From a phage: DNA of 64,000 bases. Positions 3,140-62,719 of this stretch are shown here, piece by piece. The position numbers and the translations under genes are program-made. Below the pieces are notes generated by a model, which saw only the letters and a program-made list of their open reading frames with translations, was not told the origin of the DNA and made no database searches. Numbering within the stretch: the first letter of the stretch is position 1; each line of letters opens with the position of its first letter. The stretch lies in sequence record PX068456.1. One strand, 5' to 3'.

Positions 3140-4243
3140 ATGTCCAGTCCTTTTATCAGTGCCGTAAAAAGCAAACCGTCTGAAATGAGTGTATTCACGG
3201 CAACAACAGAAAAAAGTAAGTCTTTGTTTGCTCCAAGTGCTATGGATGCAAGCCCTGTATATGCCCCTGCTGTTGCACGACCTGTACAAATGCTGCCTCC
3301 AATGTCTCGTGAAGAGATTGAACAAGTTGGTGCTGATGCAGGACTTACTCTTCGTAACCTTAATGCTGAAGTGCTTAAACACCAGCGTTCATCTCAGGGG
3401 GATGAAATGAGTGAACGTTTAACTGCACTTATTAAGCAAGCAAAGCAACTTGATCCTAATTCTATTAAACAATCTAAAGGCTTAGGTAAACTAGTTAAGA
3501 AAGTATTAGGTATGAAAGAAGATTTGTTTGGTGAATTTGACACCATCAATAATCGTATTGAAGGTTTGGTAAAGACACTCCAAACAGACTTGAAAAAAGA
3601 AGAAGATTCTTTACGATATCTGCAACGTTTAGAAGAGGCTATTGCAAAATATGCTCTTAGCTTAAACAGGGATATAGAGCTTCTAACAGCTACTTATGAA
3701 AAAGAAGAAGTTCGCCTTAATACACTACCTGAAAATGAAGTAGAAGAGCGTCAACGTACTCGTGATACTATGGATCTGCTTGAAATTCGTATTGCAGACC
3801 TGAAAGCCTTGCGTTTACTGTGTGTTCAGATGGGGCCACGTGTACAAAGTATGCAGAAAGTATCTGCAAGTTTGATGCGATCAGCCCGTAATATTGTGAA
3901 TAATGTTATTCCTGCTTACTCTGCAAACTTTTCTATGTATATTGAAAGTCTACGCCAGAAGAAAGCAGCCGATACACAGAACAATGTACTGAATGAATTT
4001 AATGCGGCTATTGCAATGGGTAGTGATCTGGCTGCACAAAACCAAATTGAAGCTACGCAACTTGCTAATCGTCAAGTATTGGATATTGAAACATTACGTC
4101 GCGATCAAGAAAACTTAGTTAAAATGTTGGAAGAAACTAACCGAATCAACACTGAAGCCCGTGCTGCTCGTATTGATTACATTCAAGAAGTGCAATCTCT
4201 TGAAGATGGTATGATTCAAACTGTTAAACGTGGTCTACTTTAA
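3140..4243 (+). CDS. coiled-coil protein, possibly TelA-like (toxic anion resistance family)
   Basis: 367 aa, predominantly helical/coiled-coil; assignment rests on size and on the TerC/TerD neighbourhood, not on a verified motif. Confidence 0.4.
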   Translation: MSSPFISAVKSKPSEMSVFTATTEKSKSLFAPSAMDASPVYAPAVARPVQMLPPMSREEIEQVGADAGLTLRNLNAEVLKHQRSSQGDEMSERLTALIKQAKQLDPNSIKQSKGLGKLVKKVLGMKEDLFGEFDTINNRIEGLVKTLQTDLKKEEDSLRYLQRLEEAIAKYALSLNRDIELLTATYEKEEVRLNTLPENEVEERQRTRDTMDLLEIRIADLKALRLLCVQMGPRVQSMQKVSASLMRSARNIVNNVIPAYSANFSMYIESLRQKKAADTQNNVLNEFNAAIAMGSDLAAQNQIEATQLANRQVLDIETLRRDQENLVKMLEETNRINTEARAARIDYIQEVQSLEDGMIQTVKRGLL

Positions 4244-60557: not shown

Positions 60558-60633
60558 TGGTCAGTGCGGCAGGACTCGAACCTGCGACCCGAAGCATCCA
60601 AAGCTCCCACGCTACCAACTGCGCTACGCACTG
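60558..60633 (-). tRNA. tRNA-Pro(UGG): tRNA-Pro (anticodon TGG)
   Basis: acceptor CAGTGCG/CGCACTG, D arm GCGC-AGTTGGTA-GCGT, anticodon loop TTTGGAT, T arm GCAGG-TTCGAGT-CCTGC. Confidence 0.7.
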
Positions 60634-60640
60634 TAAATAC

Positions 60641-60715
60641 TGGCTGGAGATCTAGGAATCGAACCTAGTCATCACGACTTCAAAGGCCGTTGCCTTCCCA
60701 CTAGGCTAATCTCCA
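60641..60715 (-). tRNA. tRNA-Gln(UUG): tRNA-Gln (anticodon TTG)
   Basis: acceptor TGGAGAT/ATCTCCA, anticodon stem ACGGC/GTCGT loop CTTTGAA, T arm CTAGG-TTCGATT-CCTAG. Confidence 0.7.
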
Positions 60716-60814
60716 ATAAAACTAAAAATCACTTAAAAAGAACCGCTAGAGTTTGAAGGAGAAAACCATGAGCGAAAAGAGAAATTTTCTCTAGCGATTC
60801 CATTTAAATAATCT

Positions 60815-60889
60815 TGGAGCGAGTAACAGGACTTGAACCTGCACCTGGAGGGTGGAAACCTCATATGCTACCATTAACACTATACCCGC
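60815..60889 (-). tRNA. tRNA-Gly(UCC): tRNA-Gly (anticodon TCC)
   Basis: acceptor GCGGGTA/TACTCGC, anticodon loop TTTCCAC, T arm GCAGG-TTCAAGT-CCTGT. Confidence 0.65.
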
Positions 60890-60944
60890 TTAACAATATT
60901 ACTCTAACATATTATTAGCCCCTTTGTCAAGAGGCTTTTGATAT

Positions 60945-61268
60945 TTATTTTAAAATAGTAGATGCACCACGTCTGTTTAGATATGCAATAGTAAAATCCA
61001 AATCACCTATTTCTTCAGGTTCCCACTGACCTTCTAAACCATAACAAGAACAATGATATGCGTGTACTTCATAAAACAAAGATGTTTTCATATCATAAAA
61101 ATAAACGTGAGATTCACCTTCATAATATGCACAATCATAAGTGGCAGAAAGAATTACAATGTTATCCTTATCTAACTCTACTTCATAATATCTTTCAACA
61201 TCTTCAATATCATCAAAACCATCGAAAACATTGATATTAAAATATTTCTCTAACTCTTTTTCTGTCAC
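60945..61268 (-). CDS. hypothetical protein embedded in the tRNA cluster
   Basis: 107-aa ORF between tRNA-Gly and tRNA-Thr. Confidence 0.4.
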   Translation of the reverse strand: MTEKELEKYFNINVFDGFDDIEDVERYYEVELDKDNIVILSATYDCAYYEGESHVYFYDMKTSLFYEVHAYHCSCYGLEGQWEPEEIGDLDFTIAYLNRRGASTILK

Positions 61269-61291
61269 ATATACTCCTTTAGAGTTAAAAT

Positions 61292-61366
61292 TGGTGCTCC
61301 CACAAGGACTCGAACCCTGATAAGTTGCTTACAAGGCAACCGTAATAGCCGTTATACGATAGGAGC
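61292..61366 (-). tRNA. tRNA-Thr(UGU): tRNA-Thr (anticodon TGT)
   Basis: acceptor GCTCCTA/TGGGAGC, anticodon stem GTTGC/GCAAC loop CTTGTAA, T arm CAGGG-TTCGAGT-CCTTG. Confidence 0.7.
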
Positions 61367-61445
61367 AAAATATTTGCTTGGTAGGATTTGATACCTACAA
61401 TTCTAGAAAATTCTAGAGGTTTCTATTAACTCTACAAGCACTATT

Positions 61446-61530
61446 TGGCGATGGATCAAGGATTTGAACCTTGCTAGAACTTTCGTTCACGGATTAACAG
61501 TCCGTCGCCCAACCACTAGGCCAATCCATC
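61446..61530 (-). tRNA. tRNA with Asn anticodon (GTT) but an unusually long, hairpin-forming variable region
   Basis: acceptor GATGGAT/ATCCATC perfect, anticodon arm ACGGA-CTGTTAA-TCCGT, 15-nt variable region GAACGAAAGTTCTAG, T arm CAAGG-TTCAAAT-CCTTG. Confidence 0.5.
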
Positions 61531-61537
61531 TTTAATT

Positions 61538-61623
61538 TGGTGCAGGTAGTTGGACTCGAACCAACGAAGCCCCGAAGGGCAGGAGATTTACAGTCTCCAG
61601 CAATTGCCGCTATGCGATACCTA
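61538..61623 (-). tRNA. tRNA-Tyr(GUA): tRNA-Tyr (anticodon GTA), type II
   Basis: acceptor GTAGGTA/TACCTGC, anticodon stem GGAGA/TCTCC loop CTGTAAA, long variable arm, T arm GTTGG-TTCGAGT-CCAAC. Confidence 0.7.
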
Positions 61624-61629
61624 CGTGTT

Positions 61630-61705
61630 TGGTACATCGTGAAGGATTCGAACCTTCGACCTTGGAGTTAAAAGCCCCTTGCTCTACCAACTAAGCTAAC
61701 GATGT
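61630..61705 (-). tRNA. tRNA-Lys(UUU): tRNA-Lys (anticodon TTT)
   Basis: acceptor ACATCGT/ACGATGT perfect, D arm GCTT-AGTTGGTA-GAGC, anticodon loop CTTTTAA, T arm GAAGG-TTCGAAT-CCTTC. Confidence 0.7.
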
Positions 61706-61838
61706 ATAAATTATCTTTAAAATAGCCAGTGTTTGCGGCACTTGACTATGAAGTATTAGGGTATCGGTAAGATGGTGGAGGCCATCTGCCGAAAGTTTAC
61801 TCTATTAAAGTAAGATTACAAGCTACATTAAAGATAAC

Positions 61839-61924
61839 TTGGCGGTAGATGTAGGACTTGAACCTACACGCCGTTTCCGACGACAGTTTAGCAAACTGTT
61901 GTGGCTACCATTTCACCAATCTAC
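61839..61924 (-). tRNA. tRNA-Ser(GCU): tRNA-Ser (anticodon GCT), type II
   Basis: acceptor GGTAGAT/ATCTACC perfect, anticodon stem ACAGT/ACTGT loop TTGCTAA, long variable arm, T arm GTAGG-TTCAAGT-CCTAC. Confidence 0.7.
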
Positions 61925-61933
61925 CGTTCTTAA

Positions 61934-62086
61934 TTATTCAAAACAACCGGAATCTTTTTGTTCTGCTTTTACCATACGAATATTTTTACCATCTTCAGAT
62001 TGTTGAAGATTAGAATACTCATAAACAACTTTATTATCTACAATCTTAACTCCGGTAACAACCTGTCCAATAGTTTTATAATTCAT
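61934..62086 (-). CDS. hypothetical small protein embedded in the tRNA cluster
   Basis: start moved to internal ATG with AGGAG RBS so that it does not overlap the tRNA-Ser(TGA) gene. Confidence 0.3.
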   Translation of the reverse strand: MNYKTIGQVVTGVKIVDNKVVYEYSNLQQSEDGKNIRMVKAEQKDSGCFE

Positions 62087-62104
62087 AAAGCTCCTAGTTG
62101 AATT

Positions 62105-62194
62105 TGGAGGAAGATAATGGAGTCGAACCATCACCGTATCGCTACAATGGGCCAGGGTTCAAACCTGGTTGCGCACCGCTGCGCCCTACCTTCC
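62105..62194 (-). tRNA. tRNA-Ser(UGA): tRNA-Ser (anticodon TGA), type II
   Basis: acceptor GGAAGGT/ATCTTCC, anticodon stem CCAGG/CCTGG loop TTTGAAC, long variable arm, T arm GATGG-TTCGACT-CCATT. Confidence 0.6.
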
Positions 62195-62257
62195 CGTTAT
62201 CATACTTTAAATCTAACATAAAACTATCTTGCTTGTCAAGTAGTTTTTAAAACTTTT

Positions 62258-62339
62258 TGGTCGGGGTGACAGGATTCGAACCTGCATACTCCAATTACTC
62301 GGTTAACGCCTGATTAGAAGTCAGGTGAGATACACCCCG
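62258..62339 (-). tRNA. atypical tRNA-like gene with Arg anticodon (TCT); no recognisable D arm, 23-nt region between anticodon and T arms
   Basis: acceptor CGGGGTG/CACCCCG perfect, anticodon arm CCTGA-CTTCTAA-TCAGG, T arm GCAGG-TTCGAAT-CCTGT. Confidence 0.45.
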
Positions 62340-62411
62340 TTTTCACAGTAACTATAACAAAAAACTAAGTGAATGTCAAGATATTTTTACTAAAATTATT
62401 ATTTAAATTGA

Positions 62412-62517
62412 AGCCTAGTTATGGAATCGAACCATATTTCGTATTTAGTTAGACAAAGCGGTCTAACATATTTTTCAGGCTTTGATGGCCTCGGAATTAC
62501 CAAATACCCTACTAGGC
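62412..62517 (-). ncRNA. tRNA-like element of ~106 nt (canonical T arm and matching acceptor halves, oversized body)
   Basis: T arm TATGG-TTCGATT-CCATA and perfect acceptor GCCTAGT/ACTAGGC about 100 nt apart; internal 7-bp hairpin GTTAGAC..GTCTAAC; no confident anticodon arm. Confidence 0.25.
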
Positions 62518-62519
62518 GT

Positions 62520-62605
62520 TGGTGCAAGTGGAGGGATTCGAACCCTCAATCATTTAAGCGTTGCGTTTTAAGCACAATGTGTATCACCAATTCCACCACA
62601 CTTGC
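62520..62605 (-). tRNA. tRNA-Leu(UAA): tRNA-Leu (anticodon TAA), type II
   Basis: acceptor GCAAGTG/CACTTGC perfect, anticodon stem TTGTG/CGCAA loop CTTAAAA, long variable arm, T arm GAGGG-TTCGAAT-CCCTC. Confidence 0.7.
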
Positions 62606-62719
62606 ATATAGGAGATGCATAGCACCTCCTTTTAAATGGTGGTTCCCCAGGGTTACAATCCCTGCCCTCGACACTTATGAGGTGTGCGCTCTCGTCAGTG
62701 AGCTATGGAACCTTGAATA

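What the first reader, a model, noticed from the sequence alone, without database searches (positions are those of the whole stretch)
62258..62339. Atypical tRNA-Arg(TCT)-like gene: perfect acceptor and anticodon arm but no D arm and a 23-nt extra region
The anticodon loop CTTCTAA matches the classic Arg(UCU) loop, the acceptor stem is perfect and the T arm canonical, yet the D arm is replaced by about 7 nt and 23 nt lie between the anticodon and T arms. Second example of the same non-canonical architecture in this cluster, which argues against a chance artefact.
Basis: seen in the sequence. Interest (0 to 1): 0.5.

Follow-up and report, generated by a model that had tools for sequence, protein, structure and literature searches.

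The report
Rewired phage arginine tRNA gene
This is a real, conserved phage gene for an arginine tRNA that has no normal D hairpin but appears to rebuild that arm from two separated strands, a tRNA design I could not find described and that standard tRNA finders miss.

Summary
Window 62258-62339 (minus strand) has a perfect 7-bp acceptor stem, a 5-bp anticodon stem with loop CUUCUAA (anticodon UCU), a canonical T arm, A73 and an encoded CCA. Only 7 nt stand where the D arm should be, and 23 nt lie before the T arm.

It is not an artefact or a pseudogene. I collected 71 distinct homologues from 103 sequence sources. They occur in unrelated phage groups and are virtually absent from cellular genomes.

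Covariation changes the reading. Three nucleotides of the 7-nt connector always pair with three nucleotides inside the 23-nt region (9 pair combinations, 71/71 fully paired). The bases that follow, GUAA(N)UGGA, match the D-stem/D-loop sequence of T4 tRNA-Arg, including the GG and the A after it.

So the 5' half of the D arm appears moved to behind the anticodon arm. Every member carries an arginine anticodon (UCU, CCU, UCG or GCG).

The window uses AGA heavily and has no other arginine tRNA. I conclude it is most likely a working tRNA-Arg(UCU) with a rewired core. Expression, charging and 3D shape are untested.

The parts
62258..62339 (-). Whole gene: rewired tRNA-Arg(UCU), 82 nt including the encoded CCA. 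Element position p corresponds to window coordinate 62340 - p.
   Evidence: Rfam tRNA model 40 bits. Family model R1 100.6 bits. Homologues in many phages.
62333..62339 (-). Acceptor stem, 5' strand (positions 1-7, CGGGGUG).
   Evidence: Pairs with positions 72-78. 99.5% of cells are paired and all 7 pairs show compensatory changes in 54 sequences.
62331..62332 (-). U8 A9.
   Evidence: U8 was not fixed by any search pattern or filter and is U in 54/54. A9 is also 54/54, but the extraction filter required it.
62326..62330 (-). Connector U C U C A (positions 10-14). This is one strand of the rebuilt D stem, equivalent to nt 22-25 plus nt 26, and runs straight into the anticodon stem.
   Evidence: 11:42 is C:G in 54/54. 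12:41 is UA 34, GC 11, AU 9 with none unpaired. 13:40 is CG 45, GC 5, UA 4 with none unpaired. In the wider set 71/71 are fully paired, with 9 combinations.
62309..62325 (-). Anticodon arm (positions 15-31): stem CCUGA/UCAGG and loop CUUCUAA. The anticodon UCU is at 62316-62318.
   Evidence: All 5 stem pairs show compensatory changes. C35 and U36 were left free by the filter and are invariant. Anticodons across the family are UCU, CCU, UCG and GCG only.
62302..62308 (-). Conserved 7-nt bulge CGUUAAC (positions 32-38) between the anticodon stem and the rebuilt D stem. Its role is unknown.
   Evidence: The first six bases are CGUUAA in 54/71 and CAUUAA in 12/71, in a filter that left this stretch free. 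No supported pairing partner was found.
62297..62301 (-). C G A G U (positions 39-43). G A G is the second strand of the rebuilt D stem, equivalent to nt 10-12. C39 faces A14 and U43 faces U10.
   Evidence: Covariation as above. The 14/39 pair is A/C or C/A in 53/71, Watson-Crick or G-U in 16/71, and other in 2/71.
62290..62296 (-). D-loop-like motif A A U U G G A (positions 44-50), proposed to correspond to A14 A15 N16 U17 G18 G19 A20.
   Evidence: A50 was not imposed by the filter and is A in 53/54. The string GUAA(N)UGGA equals G12 to A20 of T4 tRNA-Arg. It is kept in divergent members found only by the model.
62286..62289 (-). G U A U joiner (positions 51-54) leading into the T stem. It resembles the end of the AGUAU variable loop of canonical phage tRNAs.
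   Evidence: The alignment. Canonical tRNAs with '...UGG AGUAU GCNGG UUCGA' appear (for example L046).
62269..62285 (-). T arm (positions 55-71): GCAGG UUCGAAU CCUGU.
   Evidence: 99.3% of cells are paired and 3 pairs show compensatory changes. It is identical to the T arm of a T5-like canonical tRNA-Arg(UCU).
62262..62268 (-). Acceptor stem, 3' strand (positions 72-78, CACCCCG).
62258..62261 (-). Discriminator A73 plus encoded CCA.
   Evidence: The discriminator is A or G in 66/71. CCA is encoded in 38/54.
62351..62379 (-). Promoter-like site TTGACA - 17 nt - TATAGT with a TG extension. It ends 11 nt upstream of the mature 5' end.
   Evidence: 11 of 12 consensus matches. This is a consensus match only, not shown to be active.

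Best explanation
It is a functional, phage-encoded tRNA-Arg(UCU) with a rewired core.

Shown by comparison of sequences:
- The RNA has four helices that all covary: a 7-bp acceptor stem, a 5-bp T stem, a 5-bp anticodon stem and a 3-bp helix. The 3-bp helix forms between the strand just before the anticodon arm and a strand inside the 'extra' region.
- The molecule is therefore a three-way junction. It has one long anticodon-side arm: 5 bp, then an A/C pair, then 3 bp, with a conserved 7-nt bulge CGUUAAN.
- The strand that leads on to the T stem carries GUAA(N)UGGA, the sequence of the D-stem end and D loop of canonical tRNA-Arg.

Inferred:
- Relative to a normal tRNA, nucleotides 10 to about 21 have been moved from in front of nt 22 to behind the anticodon arm.
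- If so, the D stem can still stack on the anticodon stem. U8-A14, A15-U48 and G18G19 with the T loop can still form, and an A sits where ArgRS reads A20.
- The RNA would be transcribed from its own sigma-70-type promoter, trimmed, and charged by the host ArgRS through A20-like A50, C35, U36 and A73.
- It would be carried by EF-Tu on its normal 12-bp acceptor/T branch and used to read AGA (and probably AGG). These codons are common in the phage and rare in the host.

Why arginine tRNAs in particular took this shape is unknown. Escape from tRNA-directed host nucleases is a guess.
For: Real gene:
- Rfam tRNA model 40 bits against a threshold of 29.
- A promoter-like site with 11/12 consensus matches lies directly upstream.

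Conserved and under selection:
- Full-length homologues occur in Felixounavirus, Asteriusvirus, Mydovirus, Justusliebigvirus and Streptomyces phages and in about 100 viral metagenome contigs.
- There are 71 distinct sequences.
- Overall 94.8% of cells are paired, with 313 compensatory cells against 82 in shuffles.

Rebuilt D stem:
- Positions 11-13 pair with 40-42 in 162/162 cells, against 75.8% in shuffles and 10-43% in slid controls.
- There are 9 pair combinations and 71/71 sequences are fully paired. Neither filter constrained these positions.

D-loop equivalence:
- GUAA(N)UGGA matches T4 tRNA-Arg G12 to A20.
- It is kept in divergent members.

Arginine identity:
- Anticodons are only UCU, CCU, UCG and GCG. 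These span both arginine codon boxes, which have only arginine in common.
- C35 is invariant, position 36 is U or G, and position 73 is A or G in 66/71.
- These match the bacterial ArgRS identity set of A20, C35, U/G36 and A/G73 (PMC9976931).

Need for the tRNA:
- AGA is 10.8 per 1000 codons and 27% of arginine codons in the window's ORFs.
- No other arginine tRNA is present in the window or in a close relative's whole annotated set of 16.
- The Felix O1 genome paper noted AGA as over-represented and remarked that a tRNA for it was expected but not found (PMC3185647).

Filling the slot:
- In 42 of 43 further loci scanned, no canonical tRNA-Arg(UCU) was called. This includes arrays of 16-26 tRNAs. 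Two large arrays checked earlier give the same picture.
- In L072 the rewired gene is split by a homing-endonuclease insertion that carries a canonical tRNA-Arg(UCU).

Ancestry:
- The acceptor stem is nearly identical, and the T arm identical, to a T5-like canonical tRNA-Arg(UCU).
Against: - No expression, processing, modification or charging data were available.
- The 3D equivalence (U8-A14, G18G19 with the T loop, A20) is inferred from sequence order and identity only. Those positions do not vary, so covariation cannot test it.
- The conserved 7-nt bulge has no explanation in this model.
- One contig (L089) carries a canonical tRNA-Arg(UCU) right next to the rewired one, so the two may not be fully redundant.
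- ARAGORN rejects the sequence and the general tRNA model scores it lowest of the cluster.
- Part of the apparent invariance was imposed by my search patterns and filters. I controlled for this by reading each half from hits found with a pattern on the other half.
Confidence: 0.7

Rival explanations
1. It is a tRNA-Arg look-alike used as a decoy or shield, not as a decoder. It would soak up or mislead a host tRNA-directed nuclease or another tRNA-binding defence protein. Alternatively it is a decoder whose odd shape was selected because such nucleases cannot cut it.
For: Phage tRNAs are known to counter tRNA-cleaving defences, including PARIS, retron effectors and anticodon nucleases (papers listed, such as PMC11464382, PMC11555353 and PMC10264068). 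The architecture is restricted to one amino-acid identity. A strongly conserved bulge has no role in the decoding model. One contig keeps a canonical copy beside it.
Against: No arginine-specific phage defence was found in the searches. A pure decoy would not need a conserved discriminator, an encoded CCA, a full T loop, and anticodon variants that track all arginine codon boxes. AGA-rich phages with large tRNA arrays have no other AGA decoder.
Confidence: 0.15
2. It is a decaying tRNA pseudogene that lost its D arm and picked up junk sequence.
For: ARAGORN does not call it. Annotators label it tRNA-Undet, tRNA-OTHER or nothing.
Against: There are 71 distinct versions across unrelated phage families, with compensatory changes in four helices. 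The non-helical segments are more conserved than the stems. A near-consensus promoter lies upstream.
Confidence: 0.02
3. It is a canonical tRNA that has been misfolded on paper. Two versions exist: tRNA-Leu(UAA), read from the CGUUAA stretch as annotated in phage 121Q, or a class II tRNA with a self-contained variable hairpin.
For: 121Q annotates its copy as tRNA-Leu(taa). The minimum-free-energy fold of the window copy draws a CCGA-GUAA-UUGG hairpin.
Against: A stem around CGUUAA is paired in only 38% of cells, no better than shuffles. The variable hairpin is paired in 72% of cells, with one compensatory cell and 60 unpaired cells. The Rfam model finds no D arm.
Confidence: 0.01
4. It is a working tRNA that reads arginine codons but is charged with a different amino acid, because the changed core redirects it to another synthetase.
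For: The core region that many synthetases read is altered. Charging was not tested.
Against: The same architecture carries UCU, CCU, UCG and GCG anticodons, which are linked only by arginine. C35, U/G36, A/G73 and an A after GG all fit ArgRS. A canonical tRNA-Arg(UCU) replaces it in L072.
Confidence: 0.03

Closest known systems
Canonical phage tRNA-Arg(UCU), for example from T4 and T5-like phages
   Same: Same anticodon loop CUUCUAA. The acceptor stem is nearly identical, and the T arm identical, to the T5-like gene. The string GUAA(N)UGGA equals T4 G12 to A20. It sits in a phage tRNA cluster and has the same presumed job of reading AGA.
   Different: The canonical genes have a normal D hairpin between nt 9 and nt 26 and a 4-5 nt variable loop. 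Here the D-stem strands are separated by the whole anticodon arm plus a 7-nt bulge, and the D-loop-like sequence lies just before the T arm.
Metazoan mitochondrial D-armless tRNAs (tRNA-Ser for AGY/AGN codons), reviewed in PMC7609411 and PMC4013460
   Same: There is no D hairpin and the molecule is a three-way junction. From my own knowledge, models of these tRNAs also lengthen the anticodon stem by pairing connector and variable-loop bases.
   Different: The mitochondrial forms are short and have a short variable loop. The A. suum example has a truncated T arm and a flexible, less rigid fold (PMC7609411). They carry serine identity and live in organelles. The phage RNA is longer than a normal tRNA, keeps U8, a GG motif and a full UUCGA T loop, carries arginine anticodons, and would work with ordinary bacterial machinery.
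Circularly permuted tRNA genes of the red alga Cyanidioschyzon (from my own knowledge)
   Same: The order of tRNA segments in the gene differs from the canonical order.
   Different: In those genes the 3' half precedes the 5' half, and processing through a circular intermediate restores a normal mature tRNA. Here the two ends are in normal order and only an internal block is displaced, so the mature RNA itself would be rearranged.
tRNAs with long variable arms: class II tRNAs and allo-tRNAs (PMC5389517)
   Same: There is a long stretch between the anticodon arm and the T arm, and the overall length is 82 nt.
   Different: Those tRNAs have a self-contained variable hairpin plus a normal D arm. 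Here the variable hairpin is not supported and the stretch supplies a D-stem strand and a D-loop-like motif instead.

Membership tests
tRNA (Rfam RF00005, canonical elongator tRNA) | 7-bp acceptor stem, discriminator base and 3' CCA | tested here: met
   Perfect in the window copy. 99.5% of cells are paired and all 7 pairs covary. CCA is encoded in 38/54.
tRNA (Rfam RF00005, canonical elongator tRNA) | 5-bp T stem with a UUCRA-type T loop | tested here: met
   GCAGG UUCGAAU CCUGU. 99.3% of cells are paired.
tRNA (Rfam RF00005, canonical elongator tRNA) | 5-bp anticodon stem and 7-nt loop with U33 and a purine at position 37 | tested here: met
   Loop CUUCUAA. 95.6% of cells are paired and all 5 pairs covary.
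tRNA (Rfam RF00005, canonical elongator tRNA) | D hairpin between nt 9 and nt 26 | tested here: not met
   The Rfam alignment deletes 15 D-arm positions and leaves 4 nt. Only 7 nt separate the acceptor and anticodon stems.
tRNA (Rfam RF00005, canonical elongator tRNA) | Score at or above the curated threshold | tested here: met
   40.0 bits against 29.
tRNA (Rfam RF00005, canonical elongator tRNA) | Is charged and used in translation | not testable with these tools
   Needs tRNA sequencing, charging assays and ribosome work.
Bacterial tRNA-Arg identity set (PMC9976931) | C35 and U36 or G36 in the anticodon | tested here: met
   C35 is 54/54 and U36 is 54/54 in alignment A1. G36 occurs in the UCG and GCG members.
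Bacterial tRNA-Arg identity set (PMC9976931) | A or G at discriminator position 73 | tested here: met
   A in the window copy. A or G in 66/71.
Bacterial tRNA-Arg identity set (PMC9976931) | A20 in the D loop, the main ArgRS determinant | tested here: inconclusive
   An A follows the GG motif directly, as A20 follows G19 (53/54). That it occupies the same place in space is inferred, not shown.
Mitochondrial D-armless tRNA | No D hairpin | tested here: met
Mitochondrial D-armless tRNA | Short variable loop and loss of the conserved D-loop/T-loop contacts | tested here: not met
   There is a 23-nt region with a conserved GG, and a full UUCGA T loop.
Mitochondrial D-armless tRNA | Organelle origin and serine identity | tested here: not met
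   It is in the phage genome and only arginine anticodons occur.
Class II or allo-tRNA (long variable arm) | Self-contained variable-arm hairpin supported by covariation | tested here: not met
   Positions 38-41 with 46-49 are 71.6% paired, with 1 compensatory cell and 60 unpaired cells.
Circularly permuted tRNA gene | The 3' half is encoded upstream of the 5' half, so the acceptor strands are in reversed order | tested here: not met
   The acceptor 5' and 3' strands are at the two ends in normal order.

The most novel reading that the evidence does not exclude
This is a previously unrecognised class of natural tRNA. It would be an arginine tRNA, charged by the ordinary host ArgRS and used by ordinary ribosomes, in which the 5' half of the D arm has been moved behind the anticodon arm. 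That would make it the first elongator tRNA outside mitochondria without a D hairpin. It is widespread in phages of enterobacteria, actinobacteria and uncultured hosts, and is missed by tRNA finders. It may have been selected because the altered core escapes host enzymes that attack or recognise normal tRNA-Arg.
Probability: 0.5. Interest if true: 0.85.

Novelty: new variant of a known kind. Interest (0 to 1): 0.78.

Why it matters
Outside animal mitochondria, working tRNAs are taken to share one cloverleaf. If this RNA is charged and used, the D arm's chain connectivity is not essential for a bacterial synthetase, EF-Tu or the ribosome. It would only require the pieces to end up in the right places.

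That has several consequences:
- It gives a natural test case for which parts of the tRNA core each enzyme really reads, starting with ArgRS and A20.
- It is a ready-made unusual scaffold for tRNA engineering.
- It corrects phage annotation. Felix O1-type, phi92-type and 121Q-type phages have been described as lacking a tRNA for their favoured AGA codon (PMC3185647), or the gene is labelled Undet, OTHER or Leu.
- It raises a testable question about phage-host conflict: why only arginine tRNAs took this form.

Tried and rejected
1. The minimum-free-energy hairpin CCGA-GUAA-UUGG in the 23-nt region. Rejected: 72% of cells are paired, with one compensatory cell and 60 unpaired cells.

2. The reading as tRNA-Leu(UAA), as annotated in 121Q. 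Rejected: the stem around CGUUAA is paired in 38% of cells, no better than shuffles.

3. Pairing of bulge G33-A36 with U43-N46, checked by eye on alignment A1. Rejected: G/G and A/C combinations occur in whole subgroups.

4. A second member in the window. The family model finds none. The next best hits are ordinary tRNAs at 29 bits or less.

5. Copies in cellular genomes.
- There was no match in 5,426 complete E. coli genomes.
- An anticodon-independent pattern hit only 6 contigs in 185,579 species genomes. All 6 are metagenome-assembled; 4 are real members and 2 are chance matches.

6. Members with non-arginine anticodons. None were found with two anticodon-independent patterns or with the model.

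7. Literature.
- Nine full-text searches found no description of this architecture.
- Two papers on unusual tRNAs do not describe it: a 2020 review (PMC7609411) and the allo-tRNA paper (PMC5389517).
- Subscription-only papers were not searchable.

8. I did not use the metagenome scan, because the viral and genome collections gave enough sequences.

Full report
WHAT IS THERE

The window is from a phi92-like phage (Justusliebigvirus, Stephanstirmvirinae); close relatives are 97-99.9% identical over this stretch. The finding lies inside a minus-strand cluster of 16 ARAGORN-called tRNA genes at 59836-62712.

Read on the minus strand, 62339 to 62258 is: CGGGGUG UAUCUCA CCUGA CUUCUAA UCAGG CGUUAACCGAGUAAUUGGAGUAU GCAGG UUCGAAU CCUGU CACCCCG A CCA.

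- ARAGORN does not call it.
- The Rfam tRNA model does, at 40.0 bits against a threshold of 29. Its alignment removes 15 D-arm positions and inserts 20 nt before the T arm.
- Relatives annotate the locus as tRNA-Undet, tRNA-OTHER or tRNA-Leu(taa), or leave it blank.
- A promoter-like site, TTGACA-17-TATAGT with a TG extension, ends 11 nt upstream.

IT BELONGS TO A LARGE PHAGE FAMILY

A 96-nt blastn query found 201 phage records that cover at least 80% of the query. These include full-length matches of 81-87% identity in four groups unrelated to phi92:
- Felix O1-like phages
- the 348-kb 121Q group
- Klebsiella Mydovirus
- Streptomyces phages

Three short patterns, each fixing a different part of the molecule, pulled roughly 100 further contigs from a viral metagenome collection.

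A filter that put no constraint on the connector bases or on the bulge region gave 71 distinct sequences from 103 sources. An earlier, stricter filter gave the 54 sequences of alignment A1.

The family is essentially confined to phages:
- An anticodon-independent pattern hit only six contigs in 185,579 bacterial and archaeal species genomes. All six are metagenome-assembled, and two are chance matches.
- There is no match in 5,426 complete E. coli genomes.

A covariance model built from A1 scores family members at 85 bits or more, a few divergent members at 40-57 bits, and ordinary tRNAs at 38 bits or less. In the window it finds exactly one member.

THE D ARM IS REWIRED, NOT MISSING

The acceptor, anticodon and T stems all show abundant compensatory change. 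The new result is a fourth helix. Positions 11-13, in the 7-nt connector, pair with positions 40-42, inside the 23-nt region.

| Pair | Observed |
|---|---|
| 11:42 | C:G in 54/54 |
| 12:41 | U:A 34, G:C 11, A:U 9, none unpaired |
| 13:40 | C:G 45, G:C 5, U:A 4, none unpaired |

- Taken alone, this helix is paired in 162/162 cells. Shuffles give 75.8 +/- 2.2% and slid controls give 10-43%.
- In the wider set there are nine combinations: CUC/GAG, CGC/GCG, CAC/GUG, CAG/CUG, CGG/CCG, CAU/AUG, CUU/AAG, CCC/GGG and CGU/ACG. All 71 sequences are fully paired.
- The next position, 14 opposite 39, is A/C or C/A in 53/71 and a standard pair in 16/71.

Two competing folds fail:
- The hairpin drawn by energy minimisation in the window copy is paired in 72% of cells, with one compensatory cell.
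- A stem that would make CGUUAA an anticodon loop is paired in 38% of cells.

HOW IT MAPS ONTO A NORMAL tRNA-Arg

The bases after the new helix, G42 U43 A44 A45 (N46) U47 G48 G49 A50, read GUAA(N)UGGA. T4 tRNA-Arg(UCU), whose sequence I confirmed, reads G12 U13 A14 A15 U16 G18 G19 A20, which is GUAAUGGA.

The connector reads U8 A9 and then U C X Y Z. Its C pairs with G42, as C23 pairs with G12 in T4.

The simplest description is that nucleotides 10 to about 21 were moved from in front of nt 22 to behind the anticodon arm. This gives the following order:
1. acceptor 5' strand
2. U8 A9
3. nt 22-25
4. nt 26
5. anticodon arm
6. bulge CGUUAAN
7. a base facing nt 26
8. nt 10-13
9. A14 A15 N U G18 G19 A20
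10. GUAU
11. T arm
12. acceptor 3' strand

On this mapping the D stem can still stack on the anticodon stem. The partners for U8-A14, A15-U48 and G18G19 with the T loop are all present.

This spatial equivalence is inference. Those bases do not vary, so covariation cannot test it. Whether A50 corresponds to A20 or to A44 of an AGUAU variable loop is also ambiguous (one search shows canonical tRNAs ending ...UGG AGUAU GCNGG).

The acceptor stem and T arm of the window copy nearly match a T5-like canonical tRNA-Arg(UCU). This points to descent from a normal arginine tRNA.

Some of the invariance was imposed by my patterns. Each half was, however, also seen conserved in hits found by a pattern on the other half. 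Three divergent members found only by the model keep the same layout with different sequences.

WHY I THINK IT IS A WORKING ARGININE tRNA

- Every member carries an arginine anticodon. UCU is in 68 of the 71, CCU in 2 and UCG in 1. Three further divergent members carry UCU, UCG and GCG.
- One contig (L097) has three rewired genes, for UCU, GCG and UCG. The AGR and CGN codon boxes share nothing except arginine, so the architecture tracks the amino acid.
- The bacterial ArgRS identity set is A20 (the main determinant), C35, U/G36 and A/G73 (PMC9976931). The family has C35 invariant, U or G at position 36, A or G at position 73 in 66/71, and an A directly after GG in 53/54.
- The window's ORFs use AGA at 10.8 per 1000 codons, which is 27% of arginine codons. 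From general knowledge, AGA is one of the rarest codons in E. coli.
- No other arginine tRNA is in the window or among the 16 tRNAs annotated in a close relative's whole genome.
- The Felix O1 genome paper listed Arg[AGA] as over-represented and said a tRNA for it would have been expected (PMC3185647). The gene described here fills that gap.
- In 42 of 43 further loci scanned, no canonical tRNA-Arg(UCU) accompanies the rewired one, even in arrays of 16-26 tRNAs that carry canonical Arg(ACG) or Arg(UCG). Two large arrays checked earlier agree. The exception is L089, where both sit side by side.
- In L072 the rewired gene is split by an insertion of about 700 nt. The insertion holds a GIY-YIG homing-endonuclease ORF and a canonical tRNA-Arg(UCU), which looks like a natural replacement.
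- Homing endonucleases also flank the gene or sit in the cluster in other phages. This offers a route for its spread between unrelated phages.

WHAT REMAINS OPEN

- Expression, end processing, modification, charging and ribosome use are all untested.
- The conserved bulge CGUUAAN has no assigned role.
- I have no evidence for why arginine tRNAs alone adopted this form. Phage tRNAs are known to counter tRNA-cleaving defences (papers), so escape from such enzymes is a reasonable guess, but only a guess.

COMPARISON WITH WHAT IS KNOWN

The gene works like, and almost certainly descends from, canonical phage tRNA-Arg(UCU). It fails one defining feature of the canonical cloverleaf, the D hairpin.

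- It resembles animal mitochondrial D-armless tRNAs in topology. It differs in length, in keeping the GG and T-loop motifs, in identity and in setting (PMC7609411, PMC4013460).
- It is not a circularly permuted gene of the red-alga type, because its ends are in normal order.
- It is not a long-variable-arm tRNA.

Nine full-text searches found no description of this architecture, and neither did two papers on unusual tRNAs. Papers behind paywalls could not be searched.

VERDICT

This is a real and widespread phage gene family for arginine tRNAs that, as far as I could find, has not been described. Its D arm appears to be rebuilt from separated strands. I rate it a new variant of a known kind. 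My confidence that it is a working tRNA-Arg is about 0.7, and I score its interest at 0.78.

Noticed in passing
window 62410-62517 (minus strand): A tRNA-like RNA of about 108 nt that neither ARAGORN nor Rfam calls. It has a 7-bp acceptor stem GCCUAGU/ACUAGGC, a T arm UAUGG-UUCGAUU-CCAUA and a 7-bp hairpin GUUAGAC-CGCUUU-GUCUAAC. A possible anticodon arm AGGC-CAUCAAA-GCCU would have A instead of U at position 33 and UCA at the anticodon position. The segment 62390-62512 is missing from Salmonella phage UAB_1, and probably from other close relatives that show the same gapped match, so it is an insertion or deletion. It is not a member of the rewired tRNA-Arg family.
   Followed up: partly
window 61367-61445 (minus strand): An intergenic stretch between tRNA-Asn and tRNA-Thr folds into a tRNA-like shape. 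It has a 6-bp end stem, a palindromic UCUAGA hairpin with a 4-nt loop and a T-like arm GUAGG-UAUCAAAU-CCUAC, but no anticodon loop. The fold z-score is -2.7.
   Followed up: no
window 61706-61839 (minus strand): A 134-nt intergenic RNA between tRNA-Ser(GCU) and tRNA-Lys has an unusually stable fold. It is -34.1 kcal/mol, z-score -4.3, and none of 200 shuffles folds as well. An 11-bp stem closes it. No Rfam family matches.
   Followed up: no
window 61446-61530 (minus strand): The tRNA-Asn(GUU) is 85 nt long and carries a class II-like variable arm, GAAC-GAAA-GUUC. That is unusual for an asparagine tRNA. Felix O1-type phages have a normal 77-nt version.
   Followed up: no
L072 (IMGVR_UViG_3300020037_006570), minus strand, from the element start to about +820: A rewired tRNA-Arg gene is split after position 46 by an insertion of about 700 nt. 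The insertion carries a 205-aa ORF with GIY-YIG homing-endonuclease motifs (read by eye) on the opposite strand, and a canonical tRNA-Arg(UCU). The matching 3' acceptor strand follows the insertion.
   Followed up: partly
L089:1522-1692 (minus strand): A rewired and a canonical tRNA-Arg(UCU) lie next to each other on one 154-kb viral contig. This is the only such case among the 43 loci scanned.
   Followed up: partly
L097:478-558, 3326-3405, 3407-3496: One 30-kb viral contig carries three rewired arginine tRNAs, for UCU, GCG and UCG. The UCG copy also has an extra GGCC-GUGA-GGCU hairpin before the T arm.
   Followed up: partly
window 62210-62239 and 62351-62379 (minus strand): Near-consensus sigma-70-type promoter-like sites sit directly upstream of individual tRNA genes (tRNA-Ser(UGA) and the rewired tRNA-Arg). 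This suggests that genes in the cluster have their own promoters.
   Followed up: no
window 62105-62194 (minus strand): The tRNA-Ser(UGA) called by ARAGORN does not reach the Rfam tRNA threshold. It instead gives a sub-threshold match to the selenocysteine tRNA model, at 35.3 bits against 47.
   Followed up: no
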